Positions 1 through 63,094 are shown, counted from the first letter of the stretch. The stretch is 64,000 bases of DNA from Amoebophrya sp. A120 (GCA_905178155.1 CAJINV010000012.1:3219144-3283143); one strand, 5' to 3'. Numbers and translations: made by a program. The notes: generated from the letters alone by a model not told the origin.

Positions 1-3000
1 GACTACTTCCTGCACATTGTGTACAAAACGGGGTTCGCGGACTACCGGAAACAATTCCTAAACCTCCCGAACACGACCGCCGAGACCACAAGAACTGGGA
101 TTGATGTTCCAGCGTTTTCTACTGTGAAGAACAAGACGAAAAGCTTCACCCTGCCTCTCCACGGTATCCTGAGCAAAAACGTCTCCACACCAGAGTCAAG
201 ATGGGCAATCTGCTAGAGAAATCAACCAGCCTTGGTTGTTTGGCATGACAAGTTTGTCTTCGTAGTGTAGTTCTGTTTAGCTAGTTCAGAAGCATCATAG
301 ATCTAGCATAGCGCGCTGATTCTAGCGTCGCAAATTCCAAAACACCAATAGAAAGCGCTTCTCATAGGGCTCCGCATGAGAAACTTTTTTGGCATGCAGG
401 AGAATTGCGTGACAACTCTGGGGAGGGGATGTTTTTACACGGGATACACGGAGTTGAAGAGTTGCCCTGGTTCTCGCGCCACTTCACGCTCTGGGAGTGT
501 ATCTTTGCCATGCTGAATCACACGACCTCCGGGGAACAAGAAGGAGATCTACGTCATCAAGAGCAGGGGATGCAAAGTCAAAGTCGTGTTTCCGTTTCGA
601 AACGGATTGTAGTCATGGAAGAAGAAGAAGACGCGTGTTACGAACTTGACTTTGTTTTGCCTTTCCACGGTCGTCCGACAGCGTTGTCGTTTCGGCGGCA
701 CCAACGAGCAGGAGGGGGAAGAACTGCGGGACCCCTTTCAGAAGACGCAACCCCGATCAGTCGTGAGAAAAATGCAAACCATGAGCACAAGTTCGGAACG
801 GCCCGTCGGTGCTGTAAACCAAGGGCAAAAGGAGGCGAAGGTTCTACTAGTCGTGGTGTACTATTTTCCGCTACTGCCCACACAGAAGCCGGTTCATTTC
901 CGAATTGGTACCCGGTGCTGCGGCCGTGTTCTGGGAGCACCGTAGCGGCGGTTGGGACAGTGCAGGCCATCGTTGATCGGTGGAAGGAAAGTTACAGCAG
1001 GATGGAACAACGCATGGCATTTTCAACTACATCAACTGCACAACAAAAAAATGACCCGCATCATCAAGATCAACTTCCTGTCCCCACACAAAAACTACGA
1101 GAACATCAAACACAAACAACAAAGTCAGGAGGACTTTTCTGGACGTTCGCGAATAAGAATGAGTCCTCGACTACTACTTCTTTCAATAAGGTGGACCAGC
1201 GAATGATGATACAACCTGCTCTACTCCCGCATGATTCCGGGTCAAGATTTTCACGAGGAACAACGAACATCAGCAACAAGGGGAATATTAAAAGTGGCTT
1301 GATGTCTACCACTAGAAGTACAACGACCATCAAGCAGCTCAAAATGACGCAGCTCCTCCTGCCCATCCTGAGTCCCGGTGTCATCCTGCTAGCCGTCGCT
1401 AGCCTCCTGTTCTGGCCGGTGTGGGTGGTGAAAAAGTGGTGCCCTGCAACTTCATCTACAACATTCGGTAGTACAGTCGCCGCCTGGGACAGCACCAGCT
1501 ATAATTTGGCGGGTCTGAGCAACTATGCTGGGCGAGAAGACGAGGCGATTCTGCAGCAGATGAACCAGAAGCCGCTTGTTTCAACTTCGCAAGCGGACGC
1601 GGACGACATTGCCAGCTCCGTCGCTTTGGAGATCGAAATGGACGAGAGTAGATCCTTTTTACATCATTCGGAGGGAAGGTGGAGTAGTGTCAGAGACGAG
1701 CATAAAGTTGTAGATCCTCTCCGTCCTGACGCCGCTCGCACCACAGCAGCTTCCGGTAGTAGTTTCAACGCTGATGCAACGCTGAAGCTCCAGAGCGACA
1801 AAGCGCCCCGGAAGATACCACAGCCGGCGGGGGGCGGTGGTACTAGCAAGGACCAGCATGATGCACCAGCAGCTACTCCTGCTAGTACGTCGTGGGAGGA
1901 CAACAAAACTCGAAGAATCATCTCGTCCACGGGCGGAGCTACTCGGGTACTACGACCCAGCACGGGTCGGCAGCGTTCTGGTTCGTCTACTGTGCCTGCG
2001 AGTGTGCTGGAGAAGAAAGTGGACGTTCAAGAAACACGCCTCTCCGGTATTAATGCGGCTTCTGGCGTTCTTGTTGGTGACCACCACGATATCAACAAGT
2101 TCGTGGCAGGAAAAAAAACTGTGCAAAATCTACTTCCACTTACCACAGGTGGAGTAGAAGCGCCAGCAGTGTCTGGTGGTGATGAAATAACTGAGAAAGG
2201 TGACGGAACTACGGAACAAGGAGCTCTTAGTAGAGACACCGAGCCACAGCAGAAACAGGCGGAGGAAGGACAAAAAGCAGAGGAGAAAGTAGATGATTTA
2301 CAAAGACTGGACGAGGACGACGAGTTGCAGTTGGAGGACCCAGCTGCTTCTTCTACTTCGGGTTCTTCCGACGCGAAGAACCAGAACCTCATCTCAGACC
2401 CAGGAACTACTACAACAACTGACGTCGAGGCAGAAGTACTATTTGCGGACTGGCATATCGCGAATTTCTCCTACCACGTCATGTGTCTGTTTTGGCGGTT
2501 TGCCGCGATTTATCAAATGCAAAAATGTCTGGGTCTGGAAGAGTGTAAACTTGTCATGCAGGTTTTCCATGACCCATGCGGTCTGGAATGCGGGACCTAG
2601 CATGAAAGACTCTGCCGGGTCTCTGTCATGCCTATCCTGCATGAGAAACTCCCTCCCAACTTGGTCGAAAGTGGAGAGCTTTTGGCAATCATGCAATACA
2701 GATTTTTGCATGATTCGGATTTAGCATCACAAGTTGCATTCTTCCAGACCCAGACATTTTTGCATTTGATACGATTGTGTACCTGGTTGCGCAGTTCTGC
2801 GTTGTCAGATCCACGGTTGGTTGCACCGCCAGAACAAGGCACCACGACCAGAATCCAGCATCCACCCGACGACCAGATCAACAACATGACGGCTCCTTCC
2901 TGCTGGGAGGACTGATCTCGCGAGCGCGGGTGCAGTTTCTGATTGACTACTACATTTTCGTGTTCGGGGGCATCTACCTGATCGCCGGCTTTGTGTGTCT

Positions 3001-5106
3001 CCCGGTGCTCCTGGGCGCCTTTGCCAAAGCGGCTGGCGGCGCCGACGTCGGGGCCATGGTGCTGTGCAAGATCATGTGCAGGAAGAGAAAGAGCATGATG
3101 AATGGTCCTTGTACTACACCAGGGAACTACCTTCCTCATGTGGGCGGCGAAATGCATTCTCCACCTAAACAAGCACTTTCAGGAGCGCAAGAACCTCGTC
3201 GGCTGGGAACTACCGACGAAAATTTTCCTACAGCAGCGCCTCCTGCTAGTACTCACGATGGTGATACTAGTTGCGCTCCTGGACCACACCTGCCACTGCA
3301 GACAGATACCGAAGCTGACGATGTTGAGACGCTGCCTTTACTGGGGTCGTGCGAGCAGAGCGGCACATCCTCGGGGAATTTGTCGCACCGCGAAAGGACG
3401 AAAAGTGAAACGAGAGACGTAGAAGATGCTCAGCGCCGTTGTACCGGAATATTAAAAGAGGGAGTCGATAATTCCACCCGTCCCGCAATATTAACATCTG
3501 CTTCTCCACCTTCAGTCGCATCTTTTCCTTCTTCCGCCGAAAGTAACTTGAGAAAGACCGTCTGTGTGTGGGCGTTGATCCTGTATTTCGGCTGGATCCT
3601 TGCGGTGCTTCACGTGGCGGTGCCCACCCTGGTCGGTTTCCTCACTCCTTTTCTCGGGCTCGCGGTACTGGCGGGACTCGTTTTGTCCTCGAGCAGCTCC
3701 TATCAAGTGCAAAAGTGTCTGGGTCTGGAAGATTCTAAACTTGTGATGCTGGCTCTGGGTTCTAAAAAAGTTTGCATTGCATGACCAGCAACAGGACTCC
3801 AGTTTGTGCTACGCGGAGCGGGCATTTCTCATGCGGTAGAGGCATCACAAAGGCCTCTCAAAATCTGTCGTGCTAACCATGCATCACAGACATCATGAGT
3901 CATTCAAAATATGCATGACTTCCAGACCCAGACATTTTTGAATTTAATAGCTCCTTTGTCAATGGAACGATAGTTGATGTACCCGCTGAGACGACGACAA
4001 TGTCGCTGCCGCTCCTAGAAAGGAACAACAACAACATCAAGGCGACCAGCCCGGGCGAGCTGGGTAGACTTCATTCGAGAAAAATAAACAAGCTCTACAA
4101 TAATTCGTCGAGCAAAATGAATCCATCGTCGAGCAGCTGCAACAACTACTTTTTCTATTGGCACGTCCTCGCCGGGGGGCTCTTTCTGATCGCGTTTACC
4201 TACGACACTGCGACGCGTTTCTTTCTCGGAGTCGCGTACTTGTCCACCGTCGTGCTCATTTTCACGCAAACTTCTCGGTCCGTGTTTCGCGTCTTGGTCG
4301 CGAATTACCGGTTCCTTCTGTCCACCTCCGACTCCGACAAAGACGGGTCGTTTCTATCTTCAGAAAAAAGTTCTTTTACAGTGTACACACTCTTCTTATG
4401 CATAGACAAGGAAGGGAAGACAAAAAACCTCTGCGATGCTTGCCAGCCTCATTTCATGCGTCTGGTCGTTCTTTATAATTTCCGCAGTAGTTTTTATTTT
4501 CTTCGCCATGCGAAACAGGTTTGTCACCGTAAAAACACCTTTCTGATTGCATACTTCTCCCCGGCGTCGTCGTCCCACTACAACTCGCCCGGCCGCGGCG
4601 ACGAGCAGCCTGCTCAACATCTCGGTCCAAGCATCCCACACGACCAGCCCCAAGCGCACCACACGACAAACTCCGCGGCGCTGCTGACCGTCATTGTGGA
4701 GCTGTTCTGGATGATCGCGTTTCTGCTGCAGATTGCCGTGGTGCGCCCCCACGTACTGGGCCTCTACGCAGGTTCTGTTTTCGGACAGACGGCGGGGCTT
4801 TTTACCTCGTCGCCCGGGGTGGGTGGGGCCGGGACGGTGGAAGCCTCGGCTTATCTCTCAGGTGGATCAGGAGGAGCAACACCAACAGAACAACTCGCGT
4901 CGGCTTCTGCTACTTCCAACGTCGTTGTCAACCCTTCGGCCGAGTGGTTTTCGCTGTCCATGCTGGCCCTGTTCTTTTTTGCACAAGCGGTGGCGAGACT
5001 GGTGGTGTCGGAAGCGGTAACTTACCAGGAGCGGAGGACTACTACGTCGGGCGACTTACACGGTGTTGGAGCAACGTCGGTGAAGAGGACGGAGTTGGTG
5101 ATGTAG
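1..5106 (+). CDS. Multi-pass membrane protein, 5'-partial, unknown function; 4 introner introns
   Basis: ORFs 19-216, 405-2600, 2777-3784 and 4000-5106 join in frame after removing each element plus 5 nt (LPLHG|VEELP; FAAI|VYLVAQ; SSSS|FVNG). Many hydrophobic helices in the C-terminal half. Confidence 0.7.
165..446. mobile_element. TIR introner (family B)
   Basis: TATCCTGAGCAAAAACGTC...GATGTTTTTACACGGGATA; DR CACGG; frame restored. Confidence 0.9.
2511..2771. mobile_element. TIR introner (family A)
   Basis: Perfect ~31-bp TIR TATCAAATGCAAAAATGTCTGGGTCTGGAAG; DR CGATT; frame restored. Confidence 0.95.
3701..3949. mobile_element. TIR introner (family A)
   Basis: Family A TIR; DR GCTCC; frame restored. 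Confidence 0.92.
4355..4553. mobile_element. Degenerate TIR introner, stop-free and in frame
   Basis: TATCTTCAGAAA...TTTCTGATTGCATA; imperfect DR GTTTC/CTTCT; 199+5 nt is a multiple of 3; AT-rich. Confidence 0.55.
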
Positions 5107-6386: not shown

Positions 6387-9300
6387 ATGAAGACGATCGC
6401 CGCAATTTCGGTTCTCGCGATCGCGGGACAAGCGGCCCGCCAGGTGCACCTCCACGAGGACGCGGACGCGGCCAAGTCTTTCTTGCTGGTGGACAAAGCC
6501 GCACCACGGGCGACCAGGATTCCGGCTCCAAGGGTCGTGGGCGGGAATGCGCGTTGCAAAGGCTACACCCCGGACTGCGAAGAAGCATTTCCGTTAAACG
6601 CGGACTGGAAAGCGAACTGCGACGCGGCGTGCGGCGGTACTACCAGTACAACACCAGCGGCTAGTACCAACATTGCCGAAGCCGGGCCCCCCGCACAGGC
6701 GGCGGCCGAACCGGTGTTCACACCTTGCAAGGGGAGCACCTCCGAAGTGGACGGCAGGATCTTGTACCCCGATTGTCCCCACGCTTTTCCCCGGAATCTT
6801 TGGTGGGAGGCTAGCTGCTTTTTCTCCTGCAAAACACCTTGCAGTGTCGAAATCGAGAATTGTGATTCAGATACAGCTTTTCCTTATGATGCCGACTGGA
6901 AGCCAATGTGCGAAGCGGTGTGCGCGGACGAGTCAGGATGGACAGTTCCGCGTGAACCGTGCTCCGCTGCCTTTCCCGACGTGTTTCCCGGCTGCGACGC
7001 AGAGGTTCGCTCCTACCAGAAAAGTTGGTGGAAGAAGAATCACTGCAGTCGAAAATGCGACGTGCTTATGCATTGCAAAAGTGTCATCTGGGTCTGGAAG
7101 GTTGCAACTTGTCATGCTACTTCTGGATCGTGCAAAAATCTGTGTTGCATGAATGCCAAAAGCTCTCCACTTTTGACCCAGTTGAGAGGAAGTTTCTCAT
7201 GCAGGAAAGGCATGATACGGAAACGGATCATACCCACAGAATCTGTCATGCTAGGTCCTGCATTCCAGACGACATGGATCATGGAAAATCTGCATGACAA
7301 GCATGGGAATCCTCCAGACCCAGACATTTTTGCATCTGATAGTGCTGGTGGAAGCAGCCCACGGCGGAAGTGTCCTTTGCTCCAACGTTTCCCGGGTGTT
7401 GTTTCCAGGGTGTAACGCCAAAGTTTCTTCGCGGAAGCCGCCGTGGTGGAAAGCGAGGCACTGCGGTGACTATTGCCGCGTCATGCACGACGAATCCGGT
7501 GGACAGCTCGATTCCTGTGCCGCTGTCTTTCCCGACTTGTATGAGGGATGCGACGAGAGAGTGTCTCGCGATATACCGTTGGAGCGCCAGCAGAAACAGT
7601 GCAGTGAAAATTGCGGAATCATGCTGCATGCTGCAGATCATGCGACCACCCATCACGACTTTAGAGTGCAACATCGCCGGGACGAGGCCGACATACGGGA
7701 TTATTGGTGCTCCTGGTATCCTGGCGCCATGTTTGCTGGATGTAAGGACGAGAAAGTTCCGGCTGGAATGTCGCTCGGTGCGACGAGGGAAGCGTGCCTG
7801 GACCTCTGTCCGTATTGCAACCACGTCATACCCTGGTCAGAGGACTCGTTCCTTGTTCATCGCAATTGGGGGTGTCAGGCCACAGTCCCTGCCGACTCGA
7901 AAAACCAACTCGAGGTCTGCAAGGCAGCATGCGAGGAGCAGCAGGTAGAATCGAATTCTTTGCTCCTCAGGGAGGGCGAGGGGCAACGTGAATATCACCC
8001 CGACCCCGAGCGGGAGCTGGCGAATGTGGGCGGACGCGTGGGGTGCAACGCATTGGAGGTGGATTGGACGTGTGACGAAACAGTTTCTGCAGGAATGTCG
8101 TTTGAGGAAACGAAGTCACAGTGCAGGGCACTGTGTGCCGGAAACCACGCGGAATCTTTCTTGCTGGTGGACAAAGCCGCACGGGCGACCAGGATTCCGG
8201 CGCCACGGGTCGTGGGCGGGAATGCCGGCGACGTTGGTACGACATCTAGTACCATATGTATCGCAATTATGTCTGTGTCTGGAGGAGTGCGAATGCCGAT
8301 GTTAATGTTTAGTCTATTGTTTGTGCACGATACAGAAACAGAAGGTCTAGCAAGCAGGCCATCACAAGTTTTGAAACCTTTTGTTCGGTAACAAGAACGT
8401 ATTGTCCATGAAATGCGCAGCACGAGTTTGCATCTCTCTCTAGATCCACCTGAAAAATTTGCAATGCATACAATGCCATTGCCAAAGCCTTATCAAAACT
8501 TGTGATGCTTCTACAGCTCGTGTTCGCATATTTATTCCCAGGTAGCGTTCTGGGTCATGCTAGACCTCCTGCATGACAAGCCTTGGAATGTTCCACAGAA
8601 CCCAGACACCTTTGCACTTGATAGGCTGCCGCCGAGCCGCCGATTATGGGTGGACGGGATGCGCAGTGCTCGGCTGTGGATTCGTTCATGTTTCCAGGAT
8701 GTGACGCGCAAGTTTCCGCGGGAATGTCGCCCAGTGCAACGAAGAACGCGTGCGTTGCGCGCTGCCCGAAGTGCGTCGACGTTGTCACGGATGAAGAATT
8801 CCAGGGCTATCGTGAATTCGGTTGCTGGGTCACTGTCTCTGCCGACGTACAAAATCCGCTAGAGCATTGCATGGCTGAATGCGCAGAACAGCAGAAATTC
8901 GCAGGTGCTTTACTGGGTCCAGATGAATCCAGCCAACAAGGTGTCCACCACACTTTATGCATTGCAAATAAGTACTATGTCTGGGTCTGTAGGACGGGAC
9001 TGAGTTTGTGATGCCAAGTTTTCGAGGCACGGAGTTCTGTATTGCATGAGAAGCAAAAGGACCCACATTTGGCAACGCAAAGACGATATATCTCATCCAG
9101 GATAGGCATTTTTACGGAGCCTTATCAAAACTTGTGATGCTTCTACAGCTTGCATACCGATACTAGGGGGCGTCCTGGGTCATGCTAGACCTCCTGCATG
9201 ACAAGCCTTGGAATGTTCCACAGAACCCAGACACCTTTGCACTTGATAGGCTGCCGCCGAGCCGCCGATTATGGGTGGACGGGATGCGCAGTGCTCGGCT

Positions 9301-10141
9301 CTGGATTCGTTCATGTTTCCAGGATGTGACGCGCAAGTTTCCGCGGGAATGTCGCCCAGTGCAACGAAGAACGCGTGCGTTGCGCGCTGCCCGAAGTGCG
9401 TCGACGTTGTCACGGATGAAGAATTCCAGGGCTATCGTGAATTCGGTTGCTGGGTCACTGTCTCTGCCGACGTACAAAATCCGCTAGAGCATTGCATGGC
9501 TGAATGCGCAGAACAGCAGAAATTCGCAGGTGCTTTACTGGGTCCAGATGAATCCAGCCAACAAGGTGTCCACCACACTTTATGCATTGCAAATAAGTAC
9601 TATGTCTGGGTCTGTAGGACGGGACTGAGTTTGTGATGCCAAGTTTTCGAGGCACGGAGTTCTGTATTGCATGAGAAGCAAAAGGACCCACATTTGGCAA
9701 CGCAAAGACGATATATCTCATCCAGGATAGGCATTTTTACGGAGCCTTATCAAAACTTGTGATGCTTCTACAGCTTGCATACCGATACTAGGGGGCGTCC
9801 TGGGTCATGCTAGACCTCCTGCATGACAAGCCTTGGAATGTTCCACAGAACCCAGACACCTTTGCACTTGATAGGCTGCCGCCGAGCCGCCGATTATGGG
9901 TGGACGGGATGCGCAGTGCTCGGCTGTGGATTCGTTCATGTTTCCAGGATGTGACGCGCAAGTTTCCGCGGGAATGTCGCCCAGTGAAACGAAGAACGCG
10001 TGCGCTGCGCGCTGCCTGAAGTGCGTCGACGTTGTCACGGATGAAGAATTCCAGGTCTATCGTGCATTGCATTGCCGGGCCACTTATGCCAAGAAAAATG
10101 CATTTACACTTAATACACAAGCAAGACAGCGGCCAATATGA
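6387..10141 (+). CDS. Secreted cysteine-rich repeat protein
   Basis: Signal peptide MKTIAAISVLAIAGQA; repeated C..FPGCD..V....C...C modules; SFLLVDKA..ATRIPAPRVVGGNA occurs twice. Exons join across introners; 3' end uncertain. Confidence 0.7.
7067..7341. mobile_element. TIR introner (family A)
   Basis: DR GTGCT; frame restored (CDVL|VEAAH). Confidence 0.92.
8255..8470. mobile_element. Degenerate TIR introner (family A-like)
   Basis: TATGTATCGCAATT...AATTTGCAATGCATA; DR not conserved. Confidence 0.65.
8491..8623. mobile_element. Truncated introner (right half only)
   Basis: Matches the 3' half of 8956-9248; begins at an internal TATCAA. Confidence 0.6.
8956..9248. mobile_element. TIR introner (family A) with non-matching flanks
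   Basis: TIRs present; flanks CACTT/GGCTG; removing element+5 nt keeps frame. Confidence 0.85.
9581..9873. mobile_element. TIR introner, copy of 8956-9248
   Basis: Part of the 625-bp repeat. Confidence 0.85.
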
Positions 10142-11596
10142 TCTGTGGTCAGATGCCGGAAGAGGAAGATGTACACCAGATGCTTGCGAGCGCCGTTTCA
10201 TGCGTGCTTTCCCATGCGGTCTACTCCCTCTCCGTTGTATTGCAAGTTTTCTTTGTCATGGGGGGCAAGTTTGTGTTGGTGAAGGTGAAGTGACAGGTGA
10301 CGCGTGTTTTTAAGTGTAAACAGTTTTTTTATCCTTGGGATATCACTGTCTCTACCGACGCGTCAAACCCGCTGGCCCACTGCCTGGACGAATGCGCATT
10401 GACGAAAACGGCGGGTGCAACGGTGAGTGCTTTGCTGCGGTGAAAAAATCGGCAGTGCCGGCGGGCTTACCGCCACAGTGTGTGTTGCTGTTTCCAGCGA
10501 CAACTTTTTTTCGTTAAGTGCGCCCGTTTCATCTTCTACTGCAAGACGATAGAATGAAGAGATTTCCACCAAACACACATCATGGTTTGAATATTTGAAG
10601 TCCATCTTCTCAACGCCGTATTCAAGAGTTTCGTTTCACACATTTGATTTTGTTTTCTTTTACACATTTGGCTTTTTCTGACTGAACGCTTTTCCATTTT
10701 TTCTGAGCATAATTTTACAACGCATAAAGTTTTCCTTTCTGAGCAATAAATATCGCATTCGTTATCGGAGAAAAAATATCAAACATTTTTTACACTGCAT
10801 GTTTGGTTGAAGTTCGAGATTTTCACAACACCGCCTACCCTCCTGCAAGACGTCGAAGCGTCCTCGCTATCCTATCTCTCACTCTGTTCTACAACTCATC
10901 CGATTTTAGGCTTATCCATGGGGATCACGATCCAGTTCTACGACGTCTCAACACCGTGCGCATTAAAAAGGACTCCTGACGTGTCCTTTAGTTGTATCCT
11001 TGAGAAATAAATTCTGTTTCTCTTCTGATTAACAGATTTGCATACATGTTTTGTTGGTGTTTCATTTTGTGAAGGGGAAGAAAATAAACTGTATAGGAAC
11101 TACAACGAGAGCCGACGTTTGGCTTTCTGACGACGGCTGCGGCATGTGCAGCTGCAGTCTTGCTGTTCTGGCATATTACTAATGTCATCCGGAGGTACAA
11201 CCAGTACAACACGTCGTGCTAAGACCTAGCTGCACCAATCTCGTCCGACTCGGCCGTTGCTTGTCGTGCTGTAGTTGCGAAATAGATAAAGCCCAGTGAT
11301 CGACGGCGGAGAAGGTCTGCCTATAACCCGGTCAGGAGGTCCAGGTCCTGATGCTGTTGAGACCAGCTCGGTACTTGACTCCTGTTGAGAGCGAGGGCCA
11401 CGGATTTGTACTTCTTTATTCAGAGGCTCGGGACGAGAGACGAGTGTGGGCAAAGGAACACTGTGGTGGGGGAATTCATCACCAACAAAAAGTCTTCATG
11501 GAAGCGGCTTTTTGATACAGACGTGATCTGATCGGGATCGCAGCAGGGCGGCTGTATTTTACAGAAAGTAGCCTACTAGTACAATCTATACACCAA

Positions 11597-41553: not shown

Positions 41554-42182
41554 AATACAAATGAATGATATATAATCTAGAGACGACGAGGCGCGCGCGA
41601 TCATGCATTGTGCTGCGCAAGACAAATACAGTCCAAAAGATTTTTGTATTGACTTCTTGCCTGCGGCTGCTCAGTTGGAGTTGCATAGAGGTAACTGCGT
41701 TTACAATTACAAAACATCAAGTCTGTGTGTTGCCGATGCCGATGTAATCACATTTTATGTGCATAAAAAGAGATGGGCAAAAAACAAGATGAAGCCTTGC
41801 GCTGGCATGTTTGTATTCCATAGGCAGTGGGGTGAAAACTGAGCCGCATTCGCCTGTCGCACGAAAGCGGACGGCGCCAGAGGCGGAAGAGGGGCCGAGC
41901 GAACTCGTCTTGACGGGGGGATGGAAGGACAAGCAACAGAAAACGGAGAAGAGAAGCGATAGTGGTGGAGCTGGCGGCCCTCCACCCGGACGATTTTTCT
42001 CTACTGGACAACGGGGGACATTGCTACAAGGAGCTCCGCGTGGTGGAGGTGGTTAGAATCTGTGAGTAATTATCTTTTTCAGCGATTGACATGATAAAGC
42101 ATCGGATCTAACTCCTATGTGTATTTTCATAAACCCCTCGTAATGGATAAGGAGCTGCTGGTCACGTACCATTTTGCTTACC

Positions 42183-43492: not shown

Positions 43493-43561
43493 AAATGAAC
43501 ATGGACTACACTTTCATGGTAAAGTAAATTGATATTCTTGGCAATATTTCAAAAAGAAATC

Positions 43562-49500: not shown

Positions 49501-49749
49501 CACAAGTCTTACATTTTTCCAGACCCAGACATTTTTGCAATGCATACGGGGGAAACGGCCAGCCGCGACTTCTTTGCGAAGTTGGTGAAAGAGGTGTACT
49601 CCTGTTGCACATCTGATTTTTCGAATAGAGCAATGTCTTCAGTATCAGTTGCAAATACATCAGCCACTAGAAGTCAAACTCAAAATCCGAAGTGCAATCT
49701 ATTGCAGGCTGTGTTGCGAAAGCATTTGGAGGCACTGGACGCACTGTGA
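43562..49749 (+). CDS. APC5: Anaphase-promoting complex subunit 5-like TPR protein
   Basis: SIIGCFLRRVMLSFQKSSFESIMVL and LLAVAGTYYAAGEIGPAERFCQEANKAAQD resemble the conserved APC5 N-terminal and Apc5-domain motifs; one intron near 45645-45825 is unresolved. Confidence 0.75.
44415..44675. mobile_element. TIR introner (family A)
   Basis: DR CGACG. Confidence 0.93.
44704..44965. mobile_element. TIR introner (family A, reverse of 2511)
   Basis: DR ATGAG. Confidence 0.94.
46295..46437. mobile_element. Degenerate TIR introner (family C-like)
   Basis: Right end GATACTTTTGCAATGCATA; left end and DR uncertain. Confidence 0.6.
46728..46915. mobile_element. TIR introner with decayed DR
   Basis: TATCCTGAGGA...TCCACAGGATA; flanks GGACC/GCATA; +5 removal restores frame. 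Confidence 0.8.
49286..49546. mobile_element. TIR introner (family A)
   Basis: DR CGGGG. Confidence 0.94.
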
Positions 49750-52009: not shown

Positions 52010-53366
52010 ATGGCGCCGAAGAAGGACGAAGCCCCAAAGGTCGTCGAGGCCCCGAAGCTCGGACCCCAGAACGTATTTGTGTTTTTTTTAAAAAAGATTT
52101 TCATTTCATGCGGATTTTTTTGTGGCGACCGCCACCGCGACAGTTCCCACTCGCTAGTGGGCGCTTGATTTTTTGTGTAGTTGCAGTACAGGCTGTATAC
52201 TAGCACCAAGAAGTGTAATTTGTCATGCTGTTTTTACATCAAAACTAAATCTATCCCACAGGTCGGCCCGAATGAGGAGGTTTTCGGCGTTGCCCACATC
52301 TTCGCGTCCTTTAACGACACCTTCATTCACGTCACGGACTTACCAAATGTAAAAATGTCTGGGTCTGGAAGAATGCAACTTGTAATGCGTATTTCAGAAC
52401 ACAGAAAAGTCTCTCATGCATACGTAGCAAAAGCTCCCACTTTTTGCCAGCAAAATAGGGGACTTGTCATGCGGATTCGGCATTGCGGAAGGTTCTCGAA
52501 ACCTGTCATGCTAGAGCTTCCATGCCAGACCTTCTGTGTCATGCAAAAACAGCATGACTCTTCCAGATCCAGACATTTTTACACTTGATAGGACTGCTCC
52601 GGTCGCGAAACCTTCTGCCGCATCACCGGTGGTATGATGGTCAAGGCCGACAGGGATGAGTCGTCTCCGTACGCGGCGATGCTCGCGGCCCAGAACGTCG
52701 TTACCCGCTTGAAAGAGATCGGTATTCAATTTTGTCAGTCATGCATTACAAATTTTTTTCTCAATGTAAGTCCGCATTACAAATTTCATTTCTCATGCTG
52801 AGGAAGTTTGTAATGCATTTATACGAGTGCGATGCTTTTGGTTTTGCAATGCGTATTGTGGTCTTGTATGACAAAAGTTTAGCGTCATTCCGCCACGCCA
52901 ACAGGGGTGGTCACAGACCTGAGCAGGTTGCGTACTATTCGCTGTGAGGAATTTTTGTTGAACTATCTCTGGAAGAAGAAAGCTGCACGCTGAGAGAATC
53001 ATGACTAGACGGAGTCGAGCATTAGTATTGTATGCGATTGTAAACATGCGATGAACGAATTTCGGTGGTGTCCAAATTATCATATCACACGCACCCGGTC
53101 TTGATCTTCTGCGAATAATACCAAGTTGCGAACCGACGATTAATCCCTTACACGTTTCTTTTTAAAAAACTTCAGGTGTGACCGCTCTGCACGTGAAGCT
53201 GCGCGCCACCGGTGGCGTCAAGTCCCGCTCCCCGGGTCCGGGTGCCCAGCACGCGCTCCGCGCGCTCGCCCGTAACGGCATGAAGATTGGCCGCATCGAG
53301 GACGTCACCCCGATCCCGCACGACACCACCCGCAAGGCCCACGGTCGCCGCGGTCGTCGTTTGTGA
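52010..53366 (+). CDS. RPS14: 40S ribosomal protein S14 (uS11)
   Basis: [55 protein letters not shown]; GT-AG introns 52073-52261 and 52722-53175 plus one introner. Confidence 0.98.
52341..52590. mobile_element. TIR introner (family A) in RPS14
   Basis: DR GGACT; removal gives HVTDCSGRET. Confidence 0.95.
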
Positions 53367-54516: not shown

Positions 54517-57500
54517 ATGCGGTCTGCTCCCTCTTGTCTGCTCGTCGCAGCTGTTGCTTTCTCGGGCGTCCTCATTGCGTGGGCGGCCGACGGCCGCAAC
54601 AATGCGGGTTCCGCTGGTGCATCAGACTCGGATGCTGCACGGCAGCTTCGCGACAGACCCGCAGCAACATCTACTGCATTAGAAAAGCCGCGTGCCTACG
54701 GACTGGATGATCTTCGGTTCGAGCATTTGCAGATTCGATCGGGCGATTTAGATGAGAAACGTGGTGCTGGTGTCCTCGGTGAAGGAAAGCCAACAGGAGG
54801 TCTTGCGGGCCAGGAAGGGGGCAAAGACGCGTCTGGGGATCATTATGAGCCGACACATCGACATGATGATGATGTGGGAGTACCTGCTAGTCAAATGATC
54901 CCGCCGACGACCCTACACCACAAAGATTCTGAAATTCCTCCCGCCGGCGTACCCGAGAGCGGGCTAGCTTCAGAAGACAACAGCGCCTCGGCACCGCCTA
55001 CCTCCGTGGCAAAGATAGTCCGAAATTTAGCGGCGTCGGCGTTCGAGCAAGGAGATATTTTTGAAAACAGCGGGATACTAACCGCTCTTTCCTCTTGGTT
55101 CTCCCCGTCCGCTCGACCGACTACTCGTGAGTTGCAAGATGTGGTTACCACCACCACCACGACGACCACAACCACTTTATTCGTGCCCACGATCTACAAC
55201 ACGTTCACAACCACCACAACCCGAGGCGAGCGCCCGCTGGAAACCTACGACAAGCCGTTGGACTATTTCCAGCTGTTGGCTACAACCACGGCGCCGCCAA
55301 CCACGACCACCACGACGCCAAGCCCCGAGCAGCGGGTCTACGTGCCGACCATCGTGACCCTTATCAACTGCAAAAATGTCTGGGTCTGGAAACTTGTGAT
55401 GCAAGAAAGGGAAAAGTGAACTCACTATAATGCGCTGCCAAGCATGACAAGTTTTTTCCATGGTTCTGAGTTGCGTACTCCGCATGAGAAACTGCGTTTT
55501 TGCATGACTGGGAGGAGGAGCTCTTCGCGGCCATGCAACACAGAGTTCAGAGTCATACCAGACAAGCATGACAAATCTCGCAATCTCCCAGACCCAGACA
55601 TTTTTGCAATGCATAACCCTGCCGCCACTGCCAAAGGTGGGGCCGCGAAGTATAAACATCACAGCCGTGGAGGAAGAGAGGGCCAAGGCCGCCGCGCTGG
55701 AGGGGGTTTCCGCAATACAAAGTACTTCTTTATTTTTACGTGGTTTTTTCAGTTCTTCTTCTTTGTGTTTTCGGAAGATCGATGATGATGACACTGAAGC
55801 TGGTGAACAAGATGATGATCGTTTGCAAATTTTTCAATCGAGCGTAGCTATGTGCAGATCCGGATTCATTGCCTGCTAACGCATGTTTTTCCGACAAGGG
55901 AACAGGAAAAATGGGTTGTCAATTGAATCATCATACATTGTACTTTGTTATCACTATCTATCATGACATTAGTCCTATGCCAAAGACCCGTATAACCGCC
56001 AAAACTAAACAGCCCTCGCACCTCCGACCTCTGCGAAGGAGCTGATGGACGCGAAAGCGGCACTGGAAGCCGCATATGGTAAAGAAAAATTCCCCCTCGT
56101 CCCCATACTGAAGAGGTATGCTTCCAAAAATTTGCGATGCTGATTTGTGACCACAAACCCTGTCTCTCTTGCAAGAGGGCAAGGCAAAAGAATCCGCTGC
56201 ATCATGCAGGCGGTTTGTAATGCTGTTGCGGTTACATGGCAGGCCTCTGCTATGCTAAGCACCTAGACAAAAACACTCCTACGCAGGACTAGGCTCTTCC
56301 TGCAGTGCCTCGCTGCAAGACAGAGCTGATTTGTGTACACAAATGCAGCAACAGAAATCCCCGTTTCGATATGGGGAGGGGGATTTTTCCTGACGATATC
56401 GCAGAAAGGAACATCACAGCTTCGACCACCACACCCCCGCCCTTCGAAACGCTGGTTCGGTTGGAGTGTTCGTTGACGATTCCGGAGACCGTGCAGTTGT
56501 CCCAGGCGGTCTCTCTATGGAGCTCGGACATGACGTTTGTGGACTCGTGGCGCGAGGGCTTTTGTTGGACCGTGCGGTCCGACATCCGGGCAAGGATGTT
56601 GGACTGCAAACAAGTCCGGCTGATGCGCATCGCGGAGTCTGTCGGCTTCGGGAATGATCGGAGGCTGTTGGTGGGAGAAGGTAATCATATTCAACATCCT
56701 GAAGATGCTTACGTGCAGGCGAAGGAAGGCGGAGTGACAAAGGGAGCTGCGAGTACTAGCGTAGTGCATTCACCGGTTTATTCGTCGGATGGGAAAGAAC
56801 GGCACCAGGAGAACATGCTGCAAAAAAACAAACGGACCAACAGTGAAAAACCGCCAACGGGTCTTTTCTACCTTATGTCGGTGAGGAAAAAGAGGAGCCG
56901 CAGGAGGTTGAAAATTCACAGCAGGACAGCACCGACAACTGCAGGCACTAGTAGAGCAGATGATCCGGAATCTGGTGCTCACCATCTTCGTGAGACGAAG
57001 CAGCTGGTGAAAATAAACCCGGTCGTGGATGAAACTAGTTCTAGCACAGCGAGGACCTCCCATGATCATCACCATAACGGTGCACCTGCTCCGCCGGTTG
57101 CAGAGCGGAAGCTGGATGAAAGAAACTTGTCGACGTCTTCTTCAACACAACAAGCCGAGCTACAACTTGTTAATACCGCAGAAGACTACATCAAAGTGAC
57201 AACCGAATCCCCACCAGGGTCTACAACTCATGGAGTTGTACAACGATATCAAGACCCCACGACCACTCGGCACCTCACCACCTCTAACAACGACGACGAC
57301 GACGGTCCGACCCCCGCCCCGGGCCGGCGCGCGGCGAATATCCTGATCGAGTTTTCCATCGGGATGCAATCGGTCGAGGAGTTTGAGGGGGTGGATGTCG
57401 CGCTGGAGGACTTGGCGAAGCACACGCTGGCCGGGAATTTGAATCTGTTCGTGATGCGCGCACAGGCGGCCGACGAGTTTTCACCGGAGACGCGGTTCAT

Positions 57501-58549: not shown

Positions 58550-61500
58550 ATGGAGAAGAGCAACGTGTTTTTGCTTATGGAAAGAAGAGGAGCGACAATT
58601 TGTGATATATTATAATGTTAATAGCCCCCTAGCCCTACTTATTTCGGGGTGATACTCAACATCTTCGTAATTATCGCCACTTAAAATTGATGAAAGCAAA
58701 CACGGAAAGAAGAAGCAAGCGGGCTACAGAAAATTCGTTATTCGCAATTTTTGATATCACAAGTTTTTCGTTTTAATCCCTTTTCGTATGCCTTCAACCA
58801 AGACCATACGTGCTTCATTTGCGGTACGACCCAGGGCTTTCGGGTCTTCACGATTAACCCGCTCGTGGAAGTGCACCGGAGGGAATCGATCACTATTGGA
58901 AACATCGGTGGAGGTAGTACAGGAAGTAATAATGCCGCGCAAGATGGTGCCACTGCAGGAGTACCACCTCAACCGGGTGGAGGCGGGGGTGTCACAACAG
59001 GAGCAGCTACCGCCAGTAGCGCATCCTCCTCCTCCGCCGGTGGAGCTGCTGCATCTGCGCTGCAAGCCGGAGCGCCACCTCAGGTGGACCCAAATAGTAC
59101 AACAACAGGTACTAGCAACCTGAAAATGCAGCAGTCCAATGCGTGCGGCCTGGTTGCGATGCTTTTTAAAACGAACATTTTCCCGCTGGTGCGCTCGATA
59201 GATATCCAGTGCAAATATGTCTGGGTCTGGAAACCTGTGATGCTGAGTTGCGCATGATTGAAGCGCGTGCAATGGCAGCCAAGCATGACAAGTTTTTCAG
59301 ACGCCTGTTGATGCCTAGCACGCATTACAAATTGCGTTTTTGCATGACAAAGGAGCCCTCTTTTGCTGCTCATGCAACACAGATTTTCCACGAATGCACG
59401 ACACGCATTACAAGTTCCACTTTTCCAGACCCAGACATATTTGCATTTGATCATAGACAATGGGAAGCAGTTTTCGAACCGGGTGCAAATCTGGGACGAC
59501 AACAAGCAGGCGCTGGTGGGGGAGTTGTCCAACAGGCATGAGGTGCGCGGCTATCCCACAGAAAAAAGCACGCTGGTCATATTTGTAATGCGAAAACAAA
59601 TACAGAAAAAAAACTTGCGCTGCGCCTGCGTATCCTAAACAGCATGCTACGCGGCTGCCCATGACAGATTTTTCTGTGTGTTTGTTTTTGCATTACAGAT
59701 ATGCCCTGCCAGCTCTTTTCTGTGGGATAGCGGCGTCATTCTGCGCAGAGACGTGATCGCCATGGTCTGCGAGTACAGTATCTACCTGTACTATGCAAGA
59801 AAAAAACTGTGTAAGTGTAGCTCTGTAATGCAAAATTTGCAACAGAGTTACACCTGTCATGCCACACAGCCTTGAAGTCCTTTTTTCATGTGTATTTTCC
59901 CTTACAAGCCACGCATGACAGGTTTTCTCTGTCATGCAGAGCAAATTTGTGATGCTGTCAGCCAAAGAAAGTTACACTAACACAGTTTTTTTCTTGGATA
60001 TGTACACGACGGACGTTTTACGCCTCATCCTGCACGTGGCCACCTCGGGCAACCCGCGCGGGCTCTGCGCGCTGAGCCCGAAGGGGGACATCTGGGTGCT
60101 CTGTTGCCCGGGACAGACGGCAGGTTTGGAACCGGGTTTTTTTTGTTTGTGTGCGTTCTTGGTTCATCGATTATACTTGCATCTGACGCATCAGAAGTCA
60201 GGAGATGTGTCTCCATTTTCCCATGACATTGACAAATTTGAGGACTACGTGCGGTCAACAAAGGTACCATCCGCGTGCAGCATGGGCAGATTGAAGACCA
60301 ACAGTTAATCACCCCGAGTACGTATGCTTTACAAAAGTTGCATCTCAGTCGTACTAGCTTGCATCGCATGACAAATGTTGTCGAACAAAACGGAAGTTGT
60401 CATGCAGATTAGGGTAAGGAAAGCAGAATATTGCAAACAGAAACATTGCAAACATGTGGACATGCGTCGAGTGCGACAACTACGACTAGTACTACGATGC
60501 TTTTGCACGGGATAGTACCAACGCGCACCAGTCGCACGTCTTTACCGCTCATCAGTCGTCGCTCGCCGCGCTCTCCATAACACAAACCGGGACTTTAATC
60601 GCCTCGGCCTCCGAGCAGGGCACCGTGGTCCGGGTGTTTTCCGCCAAAAACGGGCAAGTGTTGCACGAGCTGAGGCGGGGAAGCAGTCCCTGCAGTATCT
60701 CGTGCCTGACATTTCGATCGGATGACAGGTGAGAGTATAGATACATAGGAAAACTCAAACTTTTTTTCTACTGCGAAGATTGGGTCTCTCATAGTCACGC
60801 AAAGATTAGCTGCATGAGTGCCACCATTGCATGTACACGGTGCGGCACGGAAATAAGTAAAAAAAGCTCTGTATTAGAAGTAGAACGAGGACGACTACCT
60901 CCTTGCGTCCTGAAATCAGCCTGCCATCATGTTATGAACACGACCAGGTTCCTCGCGGTCGCTTCGAACAGCCCGACCATCCACATTTTTCGGCTGGACG
61001 GCTACAACGCGGAGCAACTTTCCGCTGCTTCCGAGGACGCACTGCAGGCCGCGGGCGAAGCCGGCCAGGCGGGGCTTGCGTCACGAAGTACCGCAGGTGG
61101 ACTACAGCAGGGCAGCTACCAATTGCAAATACGTCTGGGTGTGGAAAGTTGGAACTTGTAATGCTGATCTTGCATTCCCGTGAAATCTGTATTGCATGAC
61201 CAACAAAAGTGGTAGCCTCTCATGTCATACAAAAACGCAGTTTGTCATGCGGAGTTCGTATGAGAAAGTGTTCTGCAAACTTGTCATGCTTTCCTGCATA
61301 AAGTTGAATAAAGGAAGTGGAAGTGCTTTCCTCTTGCACATTTTAGCATCACAAATTTCCAGACCCAGACATATTTGCATTTGATAGCAGCGTCGAGGCG
61401 ACAACTACTACCGGGAATGCAGTAGCTTCCTCTACAACTGGGCCCGCATCACACGACGTAAATCGTGGGGGAGGTGCCGCCAGCAGCAGTACTTCTAGTG

Positions 61501-63094
61501 GCTATGCGGCCGCCACGGGGAACATCTTGACGGGGGAGAACGTGAAGGAACAACTCGGGAATCTAATTTCTTCCAGCGGAGTAGTAGCGGAGAGGATAAA
61601 GGAGGGGCTGAACCAGGTCGTCGATCAGTTCAATAACCAAAGCGAACTGAAAGAAAACCTGAAAAGCGCAGTGCCACGGTACTTTAACGAATAATAGCGA
61701 TCATGTTCGTGGTGCATGACAAAATAAAAGTTGTGGTCTGCTGCCCTGAAGATCATGAAACCACTACGTCAGAACACTACAAAGCTCTGTGAAGCAATAC
61801 AAATAGTTGCAGCTTGTTATTTTACCGCCTGGTTTTTGTTTTATTATGATTCATCTCAATTTCTAACTCTATCCGAAGGTATTTCCTCGCTTCGCGCTCC
61901 TACGCCCAGTGGAAGGTGCCTGATATGCCGAACACGTCCACCGAAGAGTCCAATACCTGGGACCGGCAAAAGTACCCAGATTTCCGCGCCCAGCACAGCA
62001 GCATCCGCGGGCCGCTGGTGTGCTTTGGCCCGCCCGAGCACGACACATTTTACGTGTTGCACTACAATGGGTTCATTTACGAGGTCAGCATGGTCGCCAG
62101 TAGCGGGGATCACGCAGTGGCAGGAGGGTCTTTTGGGGAAGACGGTAAGGGGAGTTTTTTTGGGAGAAGTAGAACTCAAGGATGTTCTTTGTATTGTCAT
62201 GTTGAAGCAGCTCTTGCACAAGAAACGAGGAGTTTTGATGTCTTGCATGAAAACAGCAGGACAAGCAGCATGAAGATCCTCTACAATAATTTTTGCAAAA
62301 AGAGTACTACTATCGTGCTGTCCGCTACACCAGGTGCGACTCCCAGCAGCGGTGCACTTTTGCGTGGTTCGTTCCTGACAAACCAACTGCAGGCCAGCCC
62401 CAAGCTGTCAGCGACAAACACAGACACCACAAGTAGCCTCGCGGGCGGCGGCGGCACCAGTAGTTCTAGTGCAGCAGCTGCCTCCGGGCAAATATGCATT
62501 GCAAAGATGACGTTTGGGTCTGGGTAAATGACATGCTGAGCAGCAGCCTTGCATGACAAATACAAGGCAATCTTTAGTGCTGCATGATTGGAACATCAGA
62601 TTGTTTTCTGATCTTCGTGCGAGTTCATCTGCCATCTTTAGTATGACAGTCTGATCTTCACCGCATGAGAAAAGCATTCGCCGATAATCCTCTCCATGCA
62701 ATACAGATCTGGGCGTCGCGCAACTCCCGCATCACAAGTCCAGACCCAGGCAGCTGCATATTTGCAATGCATAGAACATGATCGGACAGCACCTGAAGGA
62801 GGTGATTCCGGGCGTCCACGTCCAGGCAACCACCCATTTAGTTCAGGCGCACGCGTTATGCATGGCAAAAGTATCGTACTGGTATAAATCGCATGACAAA
62901 TTAGCTCAGCATGAGAAATGGAATTTGTCATGCTGATTTACCTCGGGATGGAGATTTGTAATGCATGACTGCGATTTTTACTACGAGTGCGATGCTTTTG
63001 CACAGGATACGCATGGTTCGCGTCGAGGCCTGATTTCCAGATGCACAAACAAATCGTCGGAGCGGACGATGAGGCGGATTGGCAGCTGATATAA
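58550..63094 (+). CDS. ATG18: ATG18/WIPI-family PROPPIN beta-propeller; start codon uncertain
   Basis: FNQDHTCF..GFRVF, VQIWDD, NPRGLCALS, AHQS, ASASEQGTVVRVF, ELRRGS, TIHIF, PRYF; 7 introners and GT-AG introns 60124-60263, 60729-60947, 61679-61878. Confidence 0.93.
59203..59452. mobile_element. TIR introner (family A)
   Basis: DR ATAGA; right end GATC. Confidence 0.92.
59552..59729. mobile_element. TIR introner
   Basis: TATCCCACAGAAAA...TTTTCTGTGGGATA; DR GCGGC. Confidence 0.93.
59792..60000. mobile_element. TIR introner (family D-like)
   Basis: DR TGTAC. Confidence 0.93.
60323..60514. mobile_element. TIR introner (family C-like)
   Basis: DR GTACG/GTACC. Confidence 0.85.
61117..61386. 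mobile_element. TIR introner (family A)
   Basis: DR GCAGC; left end TACC. Confidence 0.92.
62493..62773. mobile_element. TIR introner (family A-like)
   Basis: TATGCATTGCAAA...TTTGCAATGCATA; DR GCAAA/GAACA. Confidence 0.85.
62857..63009. mobile_element. TIR introner (family C)
   Basis: DR CGCGT/CGCAT. Confidence 0.9.

What the first reader, a model, noticed from the sequence alone, without database searches (positions are those of the whole stretch)
165..63009. About 59 TIR transposon-like elements act as non-GT-AG introns that must be removed precisely
Seen: MITE-like elements with TAT...ATA ends and 5-bp direct repeats interrupt nearly every gene, including RPS14 (HVTD|CSGRET), ATG18 and the exonuclease catalytic domain. 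Deleting the element plus one repeat restores the frame. Ends have no consistent GT-AG, and none of these elements was found in the intergenic stretches. Canonical GT-AG introns coexist in the same genes. Established: IR/DR-bearing non-canonical introner elements have been reported in Amoebophrya, with the removal mechanism unresolved as far as I recall. Inference: a second excision system, keyed on the TIR stem, works alongside the spliceosome.
Basis: partly seen in the sequence, partly recalled or inferred. Interest (0 to 1): 0.9.

Follow-up and report, generated by a model that had tools for sequence, protein, structure and literature searches.

The report
Reversible transposon introns with fixed cuts
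A marine parasite's genes are broken by about 60 small transposon-like inserts that stay in the DNA but are cut out of the RNA exactly, whichever way round they lie; this intron class is already published for this organism, and what is added here is a likely fixed cut position that makes the unknown removal mechanism testable.

Summary
Observation confirmed; class already published. The window is Amoebophrya sp. A120, whose non-canonical introner elements were described by Farhat et al. 2021 (PMC7789003). I count 60 TAT...ATA elements, 34 with an exact 5-bp repeat, none intergenic. Ten are skipped exactly in spliced contigs; single-copy genomic contigs run through three of the skipped introns. 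Points not found in the papers I read: (1) mismatched repeats place the cut one base before TAT and four after ATA, if it is constant (three RNA junctions, two annotated junctions); (2) all six multi-copy families lie in both orientations (12:13 in the largest; 13:14 in another assembly); (3) matching repeats are not needed, and an in-frame GT-AG pair is ignored. I put a modified spliceosome at 0.5 and a separate system at 0.4. The scan noted related introns earlier on other genomes.

The parts
165..446 (+). Element (TIR to TIR; strand = host gene), repeat CACGG/CACGG
2511..2771 (+). Element, large GTCTGG family, CGATT/CGATT
3701..3949 (+). Element, large family, opposite orientation to 2511, GCTCC/GCTCC
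4397..4553 (+). Weak element, CTTCT/CTTCT; in frame without a stop, so it could be retained
   Evidence: no RNA laid
7067..7341 (+). Element, GTGCT/GTGCT; absent from annotated protein P0002
8255..8623 (+). Element with unmatched flanks TACCA/GGCTG; P0002 fits 2-4 left letters kept
8956..9248 (+). Element with unmatched flanks CACTT/GGCTG in a tandem duplication
9581..9873 (+). Tandem copy of 8956 (P0002 joins 8954 to 9878)
10085..10342 (+). Degenerate element, CCACT/TCACT; absent from P0002
11795..11952 (+). Element, short family, AGAAC/AGAGC
12005..12283 (+). Element, TGTGT/TGCGT
15265..15473 (+). Element, CCACA/CCACA; 91% like 38448 in the opposite orientation
16634..16938 (+). Element, AATCG/AATCG; opposite orientation to 26928
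16999..17319 (+). Element, AGAAA/AGAAA
17371..17622 (+). Element, CCGGA/CCGGA; 92% like 40804 in the opposite orientation
17654..17911 (+). Degenerate element, GGAAA/CGAAA
18074..18231 (+). Element, TGATG/TGATG
18995..19244 (+). Element, ACCGG/ATCGC (would test the cut at repeat letter 5)
19324..19618 (+). Element, GTTGG/CCTGG
20969..21250 (+). Element, GGCGG/GGCGG
21301..21510 (+). Element, AACGG/AACGG
21611..21891 (+). Element, CCCTA/CCCCA
23048..23334 (+). Degenerate element, CAAGC/CTTCC
   Evidence: frame restored
23977..24255 (+). Element, GCAGT/GCAGT
26411..26670 (+). Element, GCATT/GCAGT
26928..27265 (+). Element, GGAGC/AGAGC
27594..27849 (+). Element, GTGCG/GTGCG
28035..28297 (+). Element, CAGAG/CAGAG; 90% like 30292 in the opposite orientation
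28357..28678 (+). Element, CCGGG/TCAGG
28824..28969 (+). Element, GGAAG/GGATG
29041..29368 (+). Element, AACGC/AACGC
29686..29952 (+). Element, CGTTT/CGCTT, right end ATT
30292..30557 (+). Element, GCCCT/GCCCT
30597..34718 (+). 4122-nt element, AAATG/AAATG, swollen by a retroelement insertion; frame restored by element+5
   Evidence: no RNA laid
30751..34604 (+). Inserted reverse-transcriptase-like ORF (996 aa, YVDD) with a (CAA)n tail and CGCGTA on both sides, inside the element
   Evidence: no Pfam hit
34872..35156 (+). Element, GCCGG/GCCGG
35248..35390 (+). Element, GTACT/GTACT
35972..36377 (+). Degenerate element, TCGTG/TCGGC, right end ATT
38448..38657 (+). Element, CTGCC/CTGCC (exonuclease gene)
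38718..38871 (+). Element, TAAGG/TAAGG; GT-AG by chance at the -1/+4 cut
38940..39201 (+). Element, CTGTC/CTGTC, right end ATT
39540..39860 (+). Element, CAGAG/CAAAG
40171..40431 (+). Element, TACAT/TCCAT
40804..41042 (+). Element, GCGGG/GCGGG, in the exonuclease domain
41502..41822 (+). Element, TGGAG/GGCAG, left end TAC; its removal extends the ORF
44415..44675 (+). Element, CGACG/CGACG
44704..44965 (+). Element, ATGAG/ATGAG
45645..45913 (+). Element, CAGGA/CAGGA, left end TAC
46279..46437 (+). Element with a clear right end and an uncertain left end
46728..46915 (+). Element, GGACC/GCATA
49286..49546 (+). Element, CGGGG/CGGGG
52341..52590 (+). Element in RPS14, GGACT/GGACT, left end TAC; skipped exactly in RNA contig
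   Evidence: X4 loose end at 52591
52722..53175 (+). GT-AG intron of RPS14 holding a truncated element (to about 52855, right end GTA)
   Evidence: sequence
55362..55615 (+). Element, ACCCT/ACCCT; skipped (contig length adds up exactly)
56075..56398 (+). Element, CCGCA/TCGCA; RNA keeps at least 1 left letter
58575..58781 (+). Degenerate non-canonical intron of ATG18 (TT..CT), no matching repeat, not in the 60
59203..59452 (+). Element in ATG18, ATAGA/ATAGA, right end ATC; RNA skips element+5
59552..59729 (+). Element in ATG18, GCGGC/GCGGC; RNA skips element+5
59792..60000 (+). Element in ATG18, TGTAC/TGTAC; RNA skips element+5
60124..60263 (+). GT-AG intron of ATG18
60323..60514 (+). Element in ATG18, GTACG/GTACC; RNA keeps at most 4 left letters and ignores the in-frame GT..AG
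60729..60947 (+). GT-AG intron of ATG18
61117..61386 (+). Element in ATG18, GCAGC/GCAGC, left end TAC; RNA skips element+5
61679..61878 (+). GT-AG intron of ATG18 with a CTAAC branch-like site
62145..62333 (+). GT-AG intron of ATG18
62493..62773 (+). Element in ATG18, GCAAA/GAACA; RNA keeps at least 4 left letters
62857..63009 (+). Element in ATG18, CGCGT/CGCAT; RNA keeps 4-5 left letters

Best explanation
These are non-coding, transposon-like inserts in the genes of Amoebophrya sp. A120 that stay in the DNA and are missing exactly from spliced transcripts in either orientation, likely cut one base before the left TAT and four bases after the right ATA, and likely by a modified spliceosome that reads the two symmetrical ends. 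Step 1 (inferred): a DNA transposase inserts the element and duplicates 5 target bases; the internal GCAT[CGT]A[CG]A copies, often 31-33 bases apart, are probably its binding sites. Step 2 (shown for 10 elements): the transcript loses element+5, so the protein is restored without a scar. Step 3 (shown at 5 junctions, constancy assumed): the intron is N-UAU...AUA-NNNN. Step 4 (inferred): the left end offers U+2 A+3 to the U6/U5 core without G+1; the right end offers a U-tract at -19..-15 and an invariant A at -7, a candidate branch base; the 3' cut is set by distance, not by AG. Because each end is the reverse complement of the other, both orientations give the same signals. Pairing of the ends probably helps bring them together but is not the sole key.
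For: Exact removal: 7 of 7 catalogued ATG18 elements, RPS14, 55362 and 56075. DNA-type contigs of X1 at depth 41-47 run unbroken through 58575, 60323 and 62493. Cut: 60323 at most 4 left letters, 62493 and 62857 at least 4; annotated protein P0002 fits 2-4 at 8255 and 8956/9873. Both orientations in 6 of 6 families; 13:14 in loci L001-L163. For the spliceosome: U+2 and A+3 in 59 of 59 defined left ends; all 8 window end variants spare +2, +3, -7, -6 (4 hit +4, 4 hit -5); the degenerate intron 58575 keeps U+2, A+3 and A-7 without TIR or repeat; exact splicing without a predicted end stem; no excess pairing at TIR positions 4, 5, 7 within the large family. From papers: U2, U4, U5, U6 and nearly all spliceosomal proteins are present in A120 while U1 snRNA was not found, and every listed dominant A120 and A25 donor has U at +2 (PMC7789003 section 10, Table S4); the U2 spliceosome removes TIR-derived non-canonical introns in Fritillaria (PMC13326754 section 4; PMC11282704 section 6).
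Against: No lariat, branch point or factor was tested. U+2, A+3, the U-tract and A-7 are parts of the TIR and would be conserved by transposition alone. The end polarity did not replicate well: in the other assembly 4 fit and 1 does not by ORF-supported strand (P 0.19), 4 and 2 by codon model, including GAT at a left end in L021. A at -2 is enriched in the window (23 of 55, P 0.004) but not in the other set (54 A, 58 G, 39 T, 35 C of 186). G at +1 is 60 of 186 there, near background. 15 of 16 first/last base pairs occur, though the spliceosome favours particular terminal pairs (PMC13326754 section 30). A UAG right after the stem is passed over in 5 RNA-checked elements. A branch only 7 bases from the 3' end is short. 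A25 ends are TTA plus purines, which would not put A at the matching place. The cut rests on one RNA contig of one run plus one annotation.
Confidence: 0.5

Rival explanations
1. A separate, spliceosome-independent RNA system recognises the paired ends and cuts at fixed distances from the stem, 1 base on the 5' side and 4 on the 3' side, then ligates the exons.
For: Orientation independence; no constraint on the first and last base; in-frame GT-AG ignored at 60323; terminal pair predicted in 36 of 58 elements; the degenerate intron 58575 still folds its ends together and has a matched change in the subterminal motif on both arms (z -1.1); a 4.1-kb element restores the frame by the same rule. 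Euglena's code also uses fixed spacers from an inverted repeat (PMC12501133 abstract, Discussion).
Against: 22 of 58 elements lack a predicted terminal pair, among them two that are spliced exactly (55362, 60323); window end variants are polar, 8:0; the undetectable U1 snRNA in the two strains with these introns points to a changed spliceosome (PMC7789003; U1 is found in the GT-AG strain of PMC12005148); Farhat reports IR/DR ends in 15% of canonical A120 introns, so hybrids are common. No candidate enzyme is known.
Confidence: 0.4
2. The elements are excised from the DNA (as ciliate internal eliminated sequences are) before transcription.
For: TIR and exact 5-bp duplication are DNA-transposon marks; the internal motif is phased near 10.4 bases.
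Against: X1 contigs at single-copy depth run unbroken through introns that RNA contigs skip; X7 and X8 show no exact-skip joint in 58400-63700; one RNA contig loses elements and GT-AG introns together. Limits: contigs drop rare variants, the X1 joint table was cut (805 rows not shown), and the cross-run check was not given.
Confidence: 0.04
3. The elements are self-splicing RNAs.
For: Long predicted hairpins in most copies.
Against: No Rfam match in the window; reverse complements work equally well; unrelated interiors of 143-406 nt and one of 4.1 kb.
Confidence: 0.03
4. The elements are retained or removed through nearby GT-AG sites, or the genes are pseudogenes.
For: 21 of 55 elements have an in-frame GT..AG within 12 nt; 4397 is in frame without a stop.
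Against: 10 of 10 elements with informative RNA are removed as element+5; 60323 ignores its GT..AG; ORFs of 700-2200 codons appear after removal.
Confidence: 0.03

Closest known systems
Non-canonical introner elements (IEs) of Amoebophrya sp. A120 (Farhat et al. 2021, PMC7789003; Gozashti et al. 2025, PMC12130899)
   Same: Same strain, same ends (TAT, seven variable bases, at least three A), 3-5 nt direct repeats with a 5-bp example, about 240-260 nt, repeated families, RNA-supported, mixed with GT-AG introns.
   Different: Not a different thing. Farhat leaves the border 'variable' and 'unknown' (Fig. 3 legend) and places the IR 1-5 nt from the splice sites (Fig. S23 legend); Gozashti's automated calls for the 22 of 58 A120 families I saw disagree on mechanism and TSD length (2-5). 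The -1/+4 cut, two-way orientation, dispensable repeat and the phased internal motif were not in the text I read; the figures were not visible.
Nonconventional introns of Euglena (PMC12501133; PMC11282704)
   Same: TIR/TSD-bearing, non-GT-AG, coexisting with spliceosomal introns, cut at fixed spacers from a short inverted repeat, longer spacer on the 3' side.
   Different: Euglena code is N3-CDG...CH'G-N5-6 with a purine starting the next exon; here N1-TAT...ATA-N4 with no purine bias (28 of 55). Circular excised RNA is reported there and untested here.
Non-canonical MITE-derived introns of Fritillaria borealis (PMC13326754; PMC11282704)
   Same: TIR/TSD-derived non-GT-AG introns removed efficiently in one lineage; precedent for the U2 spliceosome doing the job.
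   Different: Ends there are biased (AG-AC, AG-AT) and U1 is conserved; here first and last bases are free and U1 snRNA was not found.
Non-canonical introns of hemistasiid diplonemids (PMC12621601, abstract only)
   Same: Majority non-GT-AG introns whose ends pair, beside a near-complete U2 spliceosome.
   Different: Sequence code not compared here.
MITEs / non-autonomous TIR DNA transposons with subterminal repeats (general knowledge, recalled)
   Same: TIR, constant TSD, no coding capacity, families, repeated internal motif.
   Different: No superfamily or transposase assigned; they persist only in coding sequence and are spliced without a scar.

Membership tests
Amoebophrya A120 introner elements | Occurs in strain A120 | tested here: met
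   P0002 is 100% identical to window 6387-7061 and named Amoebophrya sp. A120 by its source
Amoebophrya A120 introner elements | IR begins TAT, seven variable bases, then at least three A | tested here: met
   End profile of 55 elements: A at positions 11-13 in 49-52 of 55 at both ends
Amoebophrya A120 introner elements | 3-5 nt direct repeat at the borders | tested here: met
   5-bp repeat, exact in 34 of 60
Amoebophrya A120 introner elements | Non-GT-AG ends, removed from RNA | tested here: met
   10 elements skipped in spliced contigs; at most 2 of 55 G[TC]-AG at any placement
Amoebophrya A120 introner elements | Repeated families | tested here: met
   42 of 59 fall into 6 families; relatives in L001-L163
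Amoebophrya A120 introner elements | Hairpin joining the ends | tested here: inconclusive
   Terminal pair predicted in 36 of 58; prediction only
U2-type spliceosomal intron | GT/GC-AG termini | tested here: not met
   2 of 55 at the mapped cut
U2-type spliceosomal intron | U at +2, purine at +3 | tested here: met
   59 of 59 defined left ends; also part of the TIR, so not independent of transposition; one GAT left end in L021
U2-type spliceosomal intron | Polar signals that work in one orientation | tested here: not met
   Both orientations in all families; symmetrical ends can explain this
U2-type spliceosomal intron | Branch-point adenosine and lariat; dependence on U2/U6 | not testable with these tools
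   No raw reads of this strain mapped (X9: 31 reads laid); no snRNA in the window
Euglena-type nonconventional intron | CDG...CH'G signature and purine at exon start | tested here: not met
   Signature is TAT...ATA; first exon base purine in 28 of 55
Euglena-type nonconventional intron | Cut at fixed spacers from an inverted repeat | tested here: met
   1 and 4 bases, from 5 informative junctions; the intron at 58575 is one base off the stem rule
Euglena-type nonconventional intron | Excised as full-length circular RNA | not testable with these tools
   Only contigs of this strain were available
Fritillaria-type non-canonical intron | AG-AC / AG-AT biased termini | tested here: not met
   Donor is N-T; 15 of 16 first/last pairs occur
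MITE / non-autonomous TIR transposon | TIR, constant TSD, no coding capacity, many copies | tested here: met
MITE / non-autonomous TIR transposon | Cognate autonomous transposase | not testable with these tools
   No genome held; Farhat found no transposase in A120; Gozashti reports a TIR family with Copia-like homology

The most novel reading that the evidence does not exclude
Amoebophrya A120 has a third kind of nuclear pre-mRNA splicing: a symmetrical, orientation-blind ruler that removes any TAT...ATA-bounded insert, from 143 bases to over 4 kb, by cutting 1 base before and 4 bases after the ends, exactly cancelling the transposase's 5-base duplication, with no spliceosome (or with a U1-free core branching 7 bases from the 3' end). 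Such a system would make coding sequence a free landing site for a whole transposon group.
Probability: 0.4. Interest if true: 0.85.

Novelty: already known. Interest (0 to 1): 0.5.

Why it matters
The elements and their RNA-level removal are published for this strain, so the finding as given is a rediscovery. The removal mechanism is still open, and it concerns more than 60% of the introns of A120 (PMC7789003). Direct repeats hide the true border in ordinary mapping; mismatched repeats reveal it. A fixed N-UAU...AUA-NNNN intron predicts the exact junction of a lariat (first base N joined to A-7) or of a circle, so one RT-PCR or a re-analysis of existing reads can separate a remodelled spliceosome from a new enzyme system. 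The rule also gives a simple way to correct gene models in this lineage, and shows how a transposon can fill exons without harming proteins.

Tried and rejected
No genome is held, and the fetched loci could not be extended. No RNA holder was listed as such; X3-X6 are guessed RNA, and I treat X3 and X4 as spliced RNA because their contigs skip GT-AG introns. Raw RNA run X9 laid only 31 reads, nearly all partial, so it gave no junctions. Window 1-44000 was never laid, so 45 of the 60 elements had no reads laid on them, and 5 more (44415-49286) had no informative contig. Two protein searches meant to test more junctions found nothing. The TIR pattern has no match in viral contigs. Internal motif as branch point: rejected as the main reading, since sense and antisense copies are equal (88:85), a sense copy lies within 36-53 nt of the 3' end in only 25 of 58, and same-orientation copies are spaced 31-33 nt in 26 pairs with a phase near 10.4 (R 0.37, pairs not independent). 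A at -2 and G at +1 as spliceosomal traces: not replicated. The first frame test (40 codons) discriminated poorly and was redone. The intron near 20665-20850 could not be placed in frame. Gozashti's A25 rows gave no consistent TSD length (30 of 60 seen). The inserted ORF has no Pfam or PDB match; the HMMER job had not finished when I stopped. Literature searches for a published cut site or mechanism found none beyond the papers cited; the library lacks most subscription papers, and Roy 2023, Henriet 2019 and Huff 2016 were not read.

Full report
What is there. The window holds ten modelled long genes, all on the + strand, and 60 inserts bounded by TAT...ATA with a consensus TAT-N7-AAAAA at both ends. 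A plain scan finds 33 TAT...ATA pairs with an exact 5-bp flanking repeat against 2.4 expected, and only the 5-bp length is clearly enriched; 5 of the 33 were dropped as chance-like. Of the 60, 34 have exact repeats and 26 have 1-4 mismatches; 59 are 143-406 nt long and one is 4122 nt. Removing element+5 opens 100 codons on both sides for 48 of 60, against 6-13 for off-frame lengths; +2 and +8 do as well, so RNA was needed for the length. None lies in the 10.8 kb between my gene models, where 14.6 were expected.

Where it comes from. A database protein identical to window 6387-7061 is labelled Amoebophrya sp. A120. Farhat et al. 2021 (PMC7789003; I read the abstract, sections 10, 11, 12, 16, 36, search passages, and part 3 of 5 of the supplement; figures not visible) report 65% non-canonical introns in A120 with RNA-seq support, IR motifs starting TAT plus seven bases plus at least three A, 3-5 nt direct repeats, and no U1 snRNA. 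So the class, in this strain, is known. They leave the border position variable or unknown and the mechanism open. Gozashti et al. 2025 (PMC12130899; passages, and 22 of 58 A120 rows and 30 of 60 A25 rows of Dataset S2) call most of the A120 families I saw TIR DNA transposons, with inconsistent automated TSD and splice-site calls. Figures S19-S25 of Farhat, which I could not see, may already show part of what follows.

RNA against DNA. No listed run was on record as an RNA holder, but contigs of X3 and X4 skip GT-AG introns and are therefore spliced transcripts. One X4 contig covers ATG18: it skips 7 of 7 catalogued elements by element+5, four GT-AG introns, and one more non-canonical intron at 58575-58781; the exon lengths add up to the contig (2624 of 2624 nt). 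RPS14 (loose end at 52591), 55362 and 56075 are also skipped exactly. X1 contigs at depth 41-47 run unbroken through 58575, 60323 and 62493, so the elements stay in the DNA, within the limit that contigs drop rare forms. Only 44001-64000 was laid; 50 of the 60 elements have no RNA evidence here, five of which are absent from the annotated protein P0002.

The cut. Where the two repeat copies differ, the transcript shows which copy each letter came from. At 60323 (GTACG/GTACC) at most four letters come from the left copy; at 62493 and 62857 at least four; at 56075 at least one. P0002 fits two to four at 8255 and at 8956/9873, and at least one at 10085. The only common value is four. If the cut is constant, the intron is N-TAT...ATA-NNNN. 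This agrees with Farhat's Table S4, where all nine dominant A120 motifs begin with N-T. Three consequences are shown: matching repeats are not required (8255 and 8956 differ at 4 and 3 of 5 letters; 58575 has none); a UAG just after the stem is passed over in five RNA-checked elements; and at 60323 an in-frame GT..AG pair is ignored (skip 197, not 194). The evidence is thin in number: one contig of one run and one annotation, itself probably built from transcript alignments.

Orientation. All host genes are on +, yet each of six multi-copy families occurs both ways round (12:13 in the family of 25), with pairs 90-92% alike in opposite orientation. A collection scan returned 163 loci, the 80 listed all from contigs with prefix JACKZZ01; they hold 215 elements, 182 with exact 5-bp repeats under a rule that required at least 4 of 5. 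Of 29 with a firm strand call, 27 matched a window element, 13 in the same and 14 in the opposite orientation. Any signal must therefore sit in the symmetrical ends.

Which machine. For a modified spliceosome: the cut puts U at +2 and A at +3 in 59 of 59 defined left ends, a U-tract at -19..-15 and A at -7; all 8 end variants in the window spare +2, +3, -7 and -6; 58575 keeps U+2, A+3 and A-7 after losing its TIR; 60323 is spliced exactly with no predicted end stem; the terminal pair is predicted in only 36 of 58; and TIR positions 4, 5 and 7 show no excess pairing within the large family. A120 has U2, U4, U5, U6 and lacks a detectable U1, whereas the GT-AG strain of PMC12005148 (passages) has U1. 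In Fritillaria the U2 spliceosome removes TIR-derived non-canonical introns (PMC13326754 abstract, sections 4 and 30; PMC11282704 passages and section 6). Against it: those bases are also the TIR; the polarity did not replicate (4:1 by ORF strand, P 0.19; 4:2 by codon model); the A at -2 excess (23 of 55) vanished in the larger set; 15 of 16 terminal pairs occur. These points, with orientation blindness and fixed spacers, fit a separate system like that of Euglena, whose code N3-CDG...CH'G-N5-6 was defined genetically (PMC12501133 abstract, passages, Discussion). I put the spliceosome at 0.5 and a separate system at 0.4; neither was tested directly.

How they move. An internal motif GCAT[CGT]A[CG]A is shared by otherwise unrelated families: 173 GCATNAC copies in 14.7 kb of elements against 25 in 45 kb outside, 88 sense and 85 antisense, with same-orientation spacing peaking at 31-33 nt, about three helical turns (copies are related, so not independent). 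I read these as transposase binding sites (inference). No transposase could be sought. One element has taken in a 3.85-kb reverse-transcriptase-like insert and still restores the frame by the same rule, which suggests that only the ends matter; this was not seen in RNA.

Verdict. Real, and already known as a class and in this strain. The added value is a specific intron geometry and orientation independence, which I did not find in print (searches) and which turn the open question into a single junction-sequencing test. Earlier notes of this scan describe related introns on other genomes; I did not check them. Interest 0.5.

Noticed in passing
window 30751-34604: A 3.85-kb insert with a 996-aa ORF (YVDD motif, reverse-transcriptase-like by ESM Atlas features, score 0.95, no Pfam hit), a (CAA)n tail and a 6-bp flanking duplication sits inside an element: a non-LTR-like retroelement using the intron as a safe site.
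   Followed up: partly
window 8255-9873: Tandem duplication with units of about 625 nt that begin inside an element, giving elements whose two flanks do not match; the annotated protein skips one whole unit.
   Followed up: partly
window 52722-52855: A truncated element forms the 5' part of a GT-AG intron of RPS14; its right end reads GTA, the only A-7 change I saw in the window, and it is not used as a 3' end.
   Followed up: partly
window 20665-20850: Intron-like stretch with element motifs, a TAT-like left end and an AG end; a possible hybrid between the two intron kinds, borders not resolved.
   Followed up: partly
window 58575-58781: RNA-verified non-canonical intron with decayed TIR and no direct repeat; both arms carry the same complementary change in the subterminal motif (TTGTGATAT / ATATCACAA).
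   Followed up: partly
window 4397-4553: Weak element in frame and without a stop, possibly retained as coding sequence.
   Followed up: no
window 11596-36614: After removal of about 28 elements a very long low-complexity coding region appears (ORFs of 2205, 1210 and 941 codons), with no Pfam match in the exons scanned.
   Followed up: no
whole window: All ten modelled genes lie on the + strand, as in the unidirectional clusters reported for this genus.
   Followed up: no
L021:2398-2548: Element with a GAT left end in transcribed orientation and an open frame after removal, against strict U+2.
   Followed up: partly
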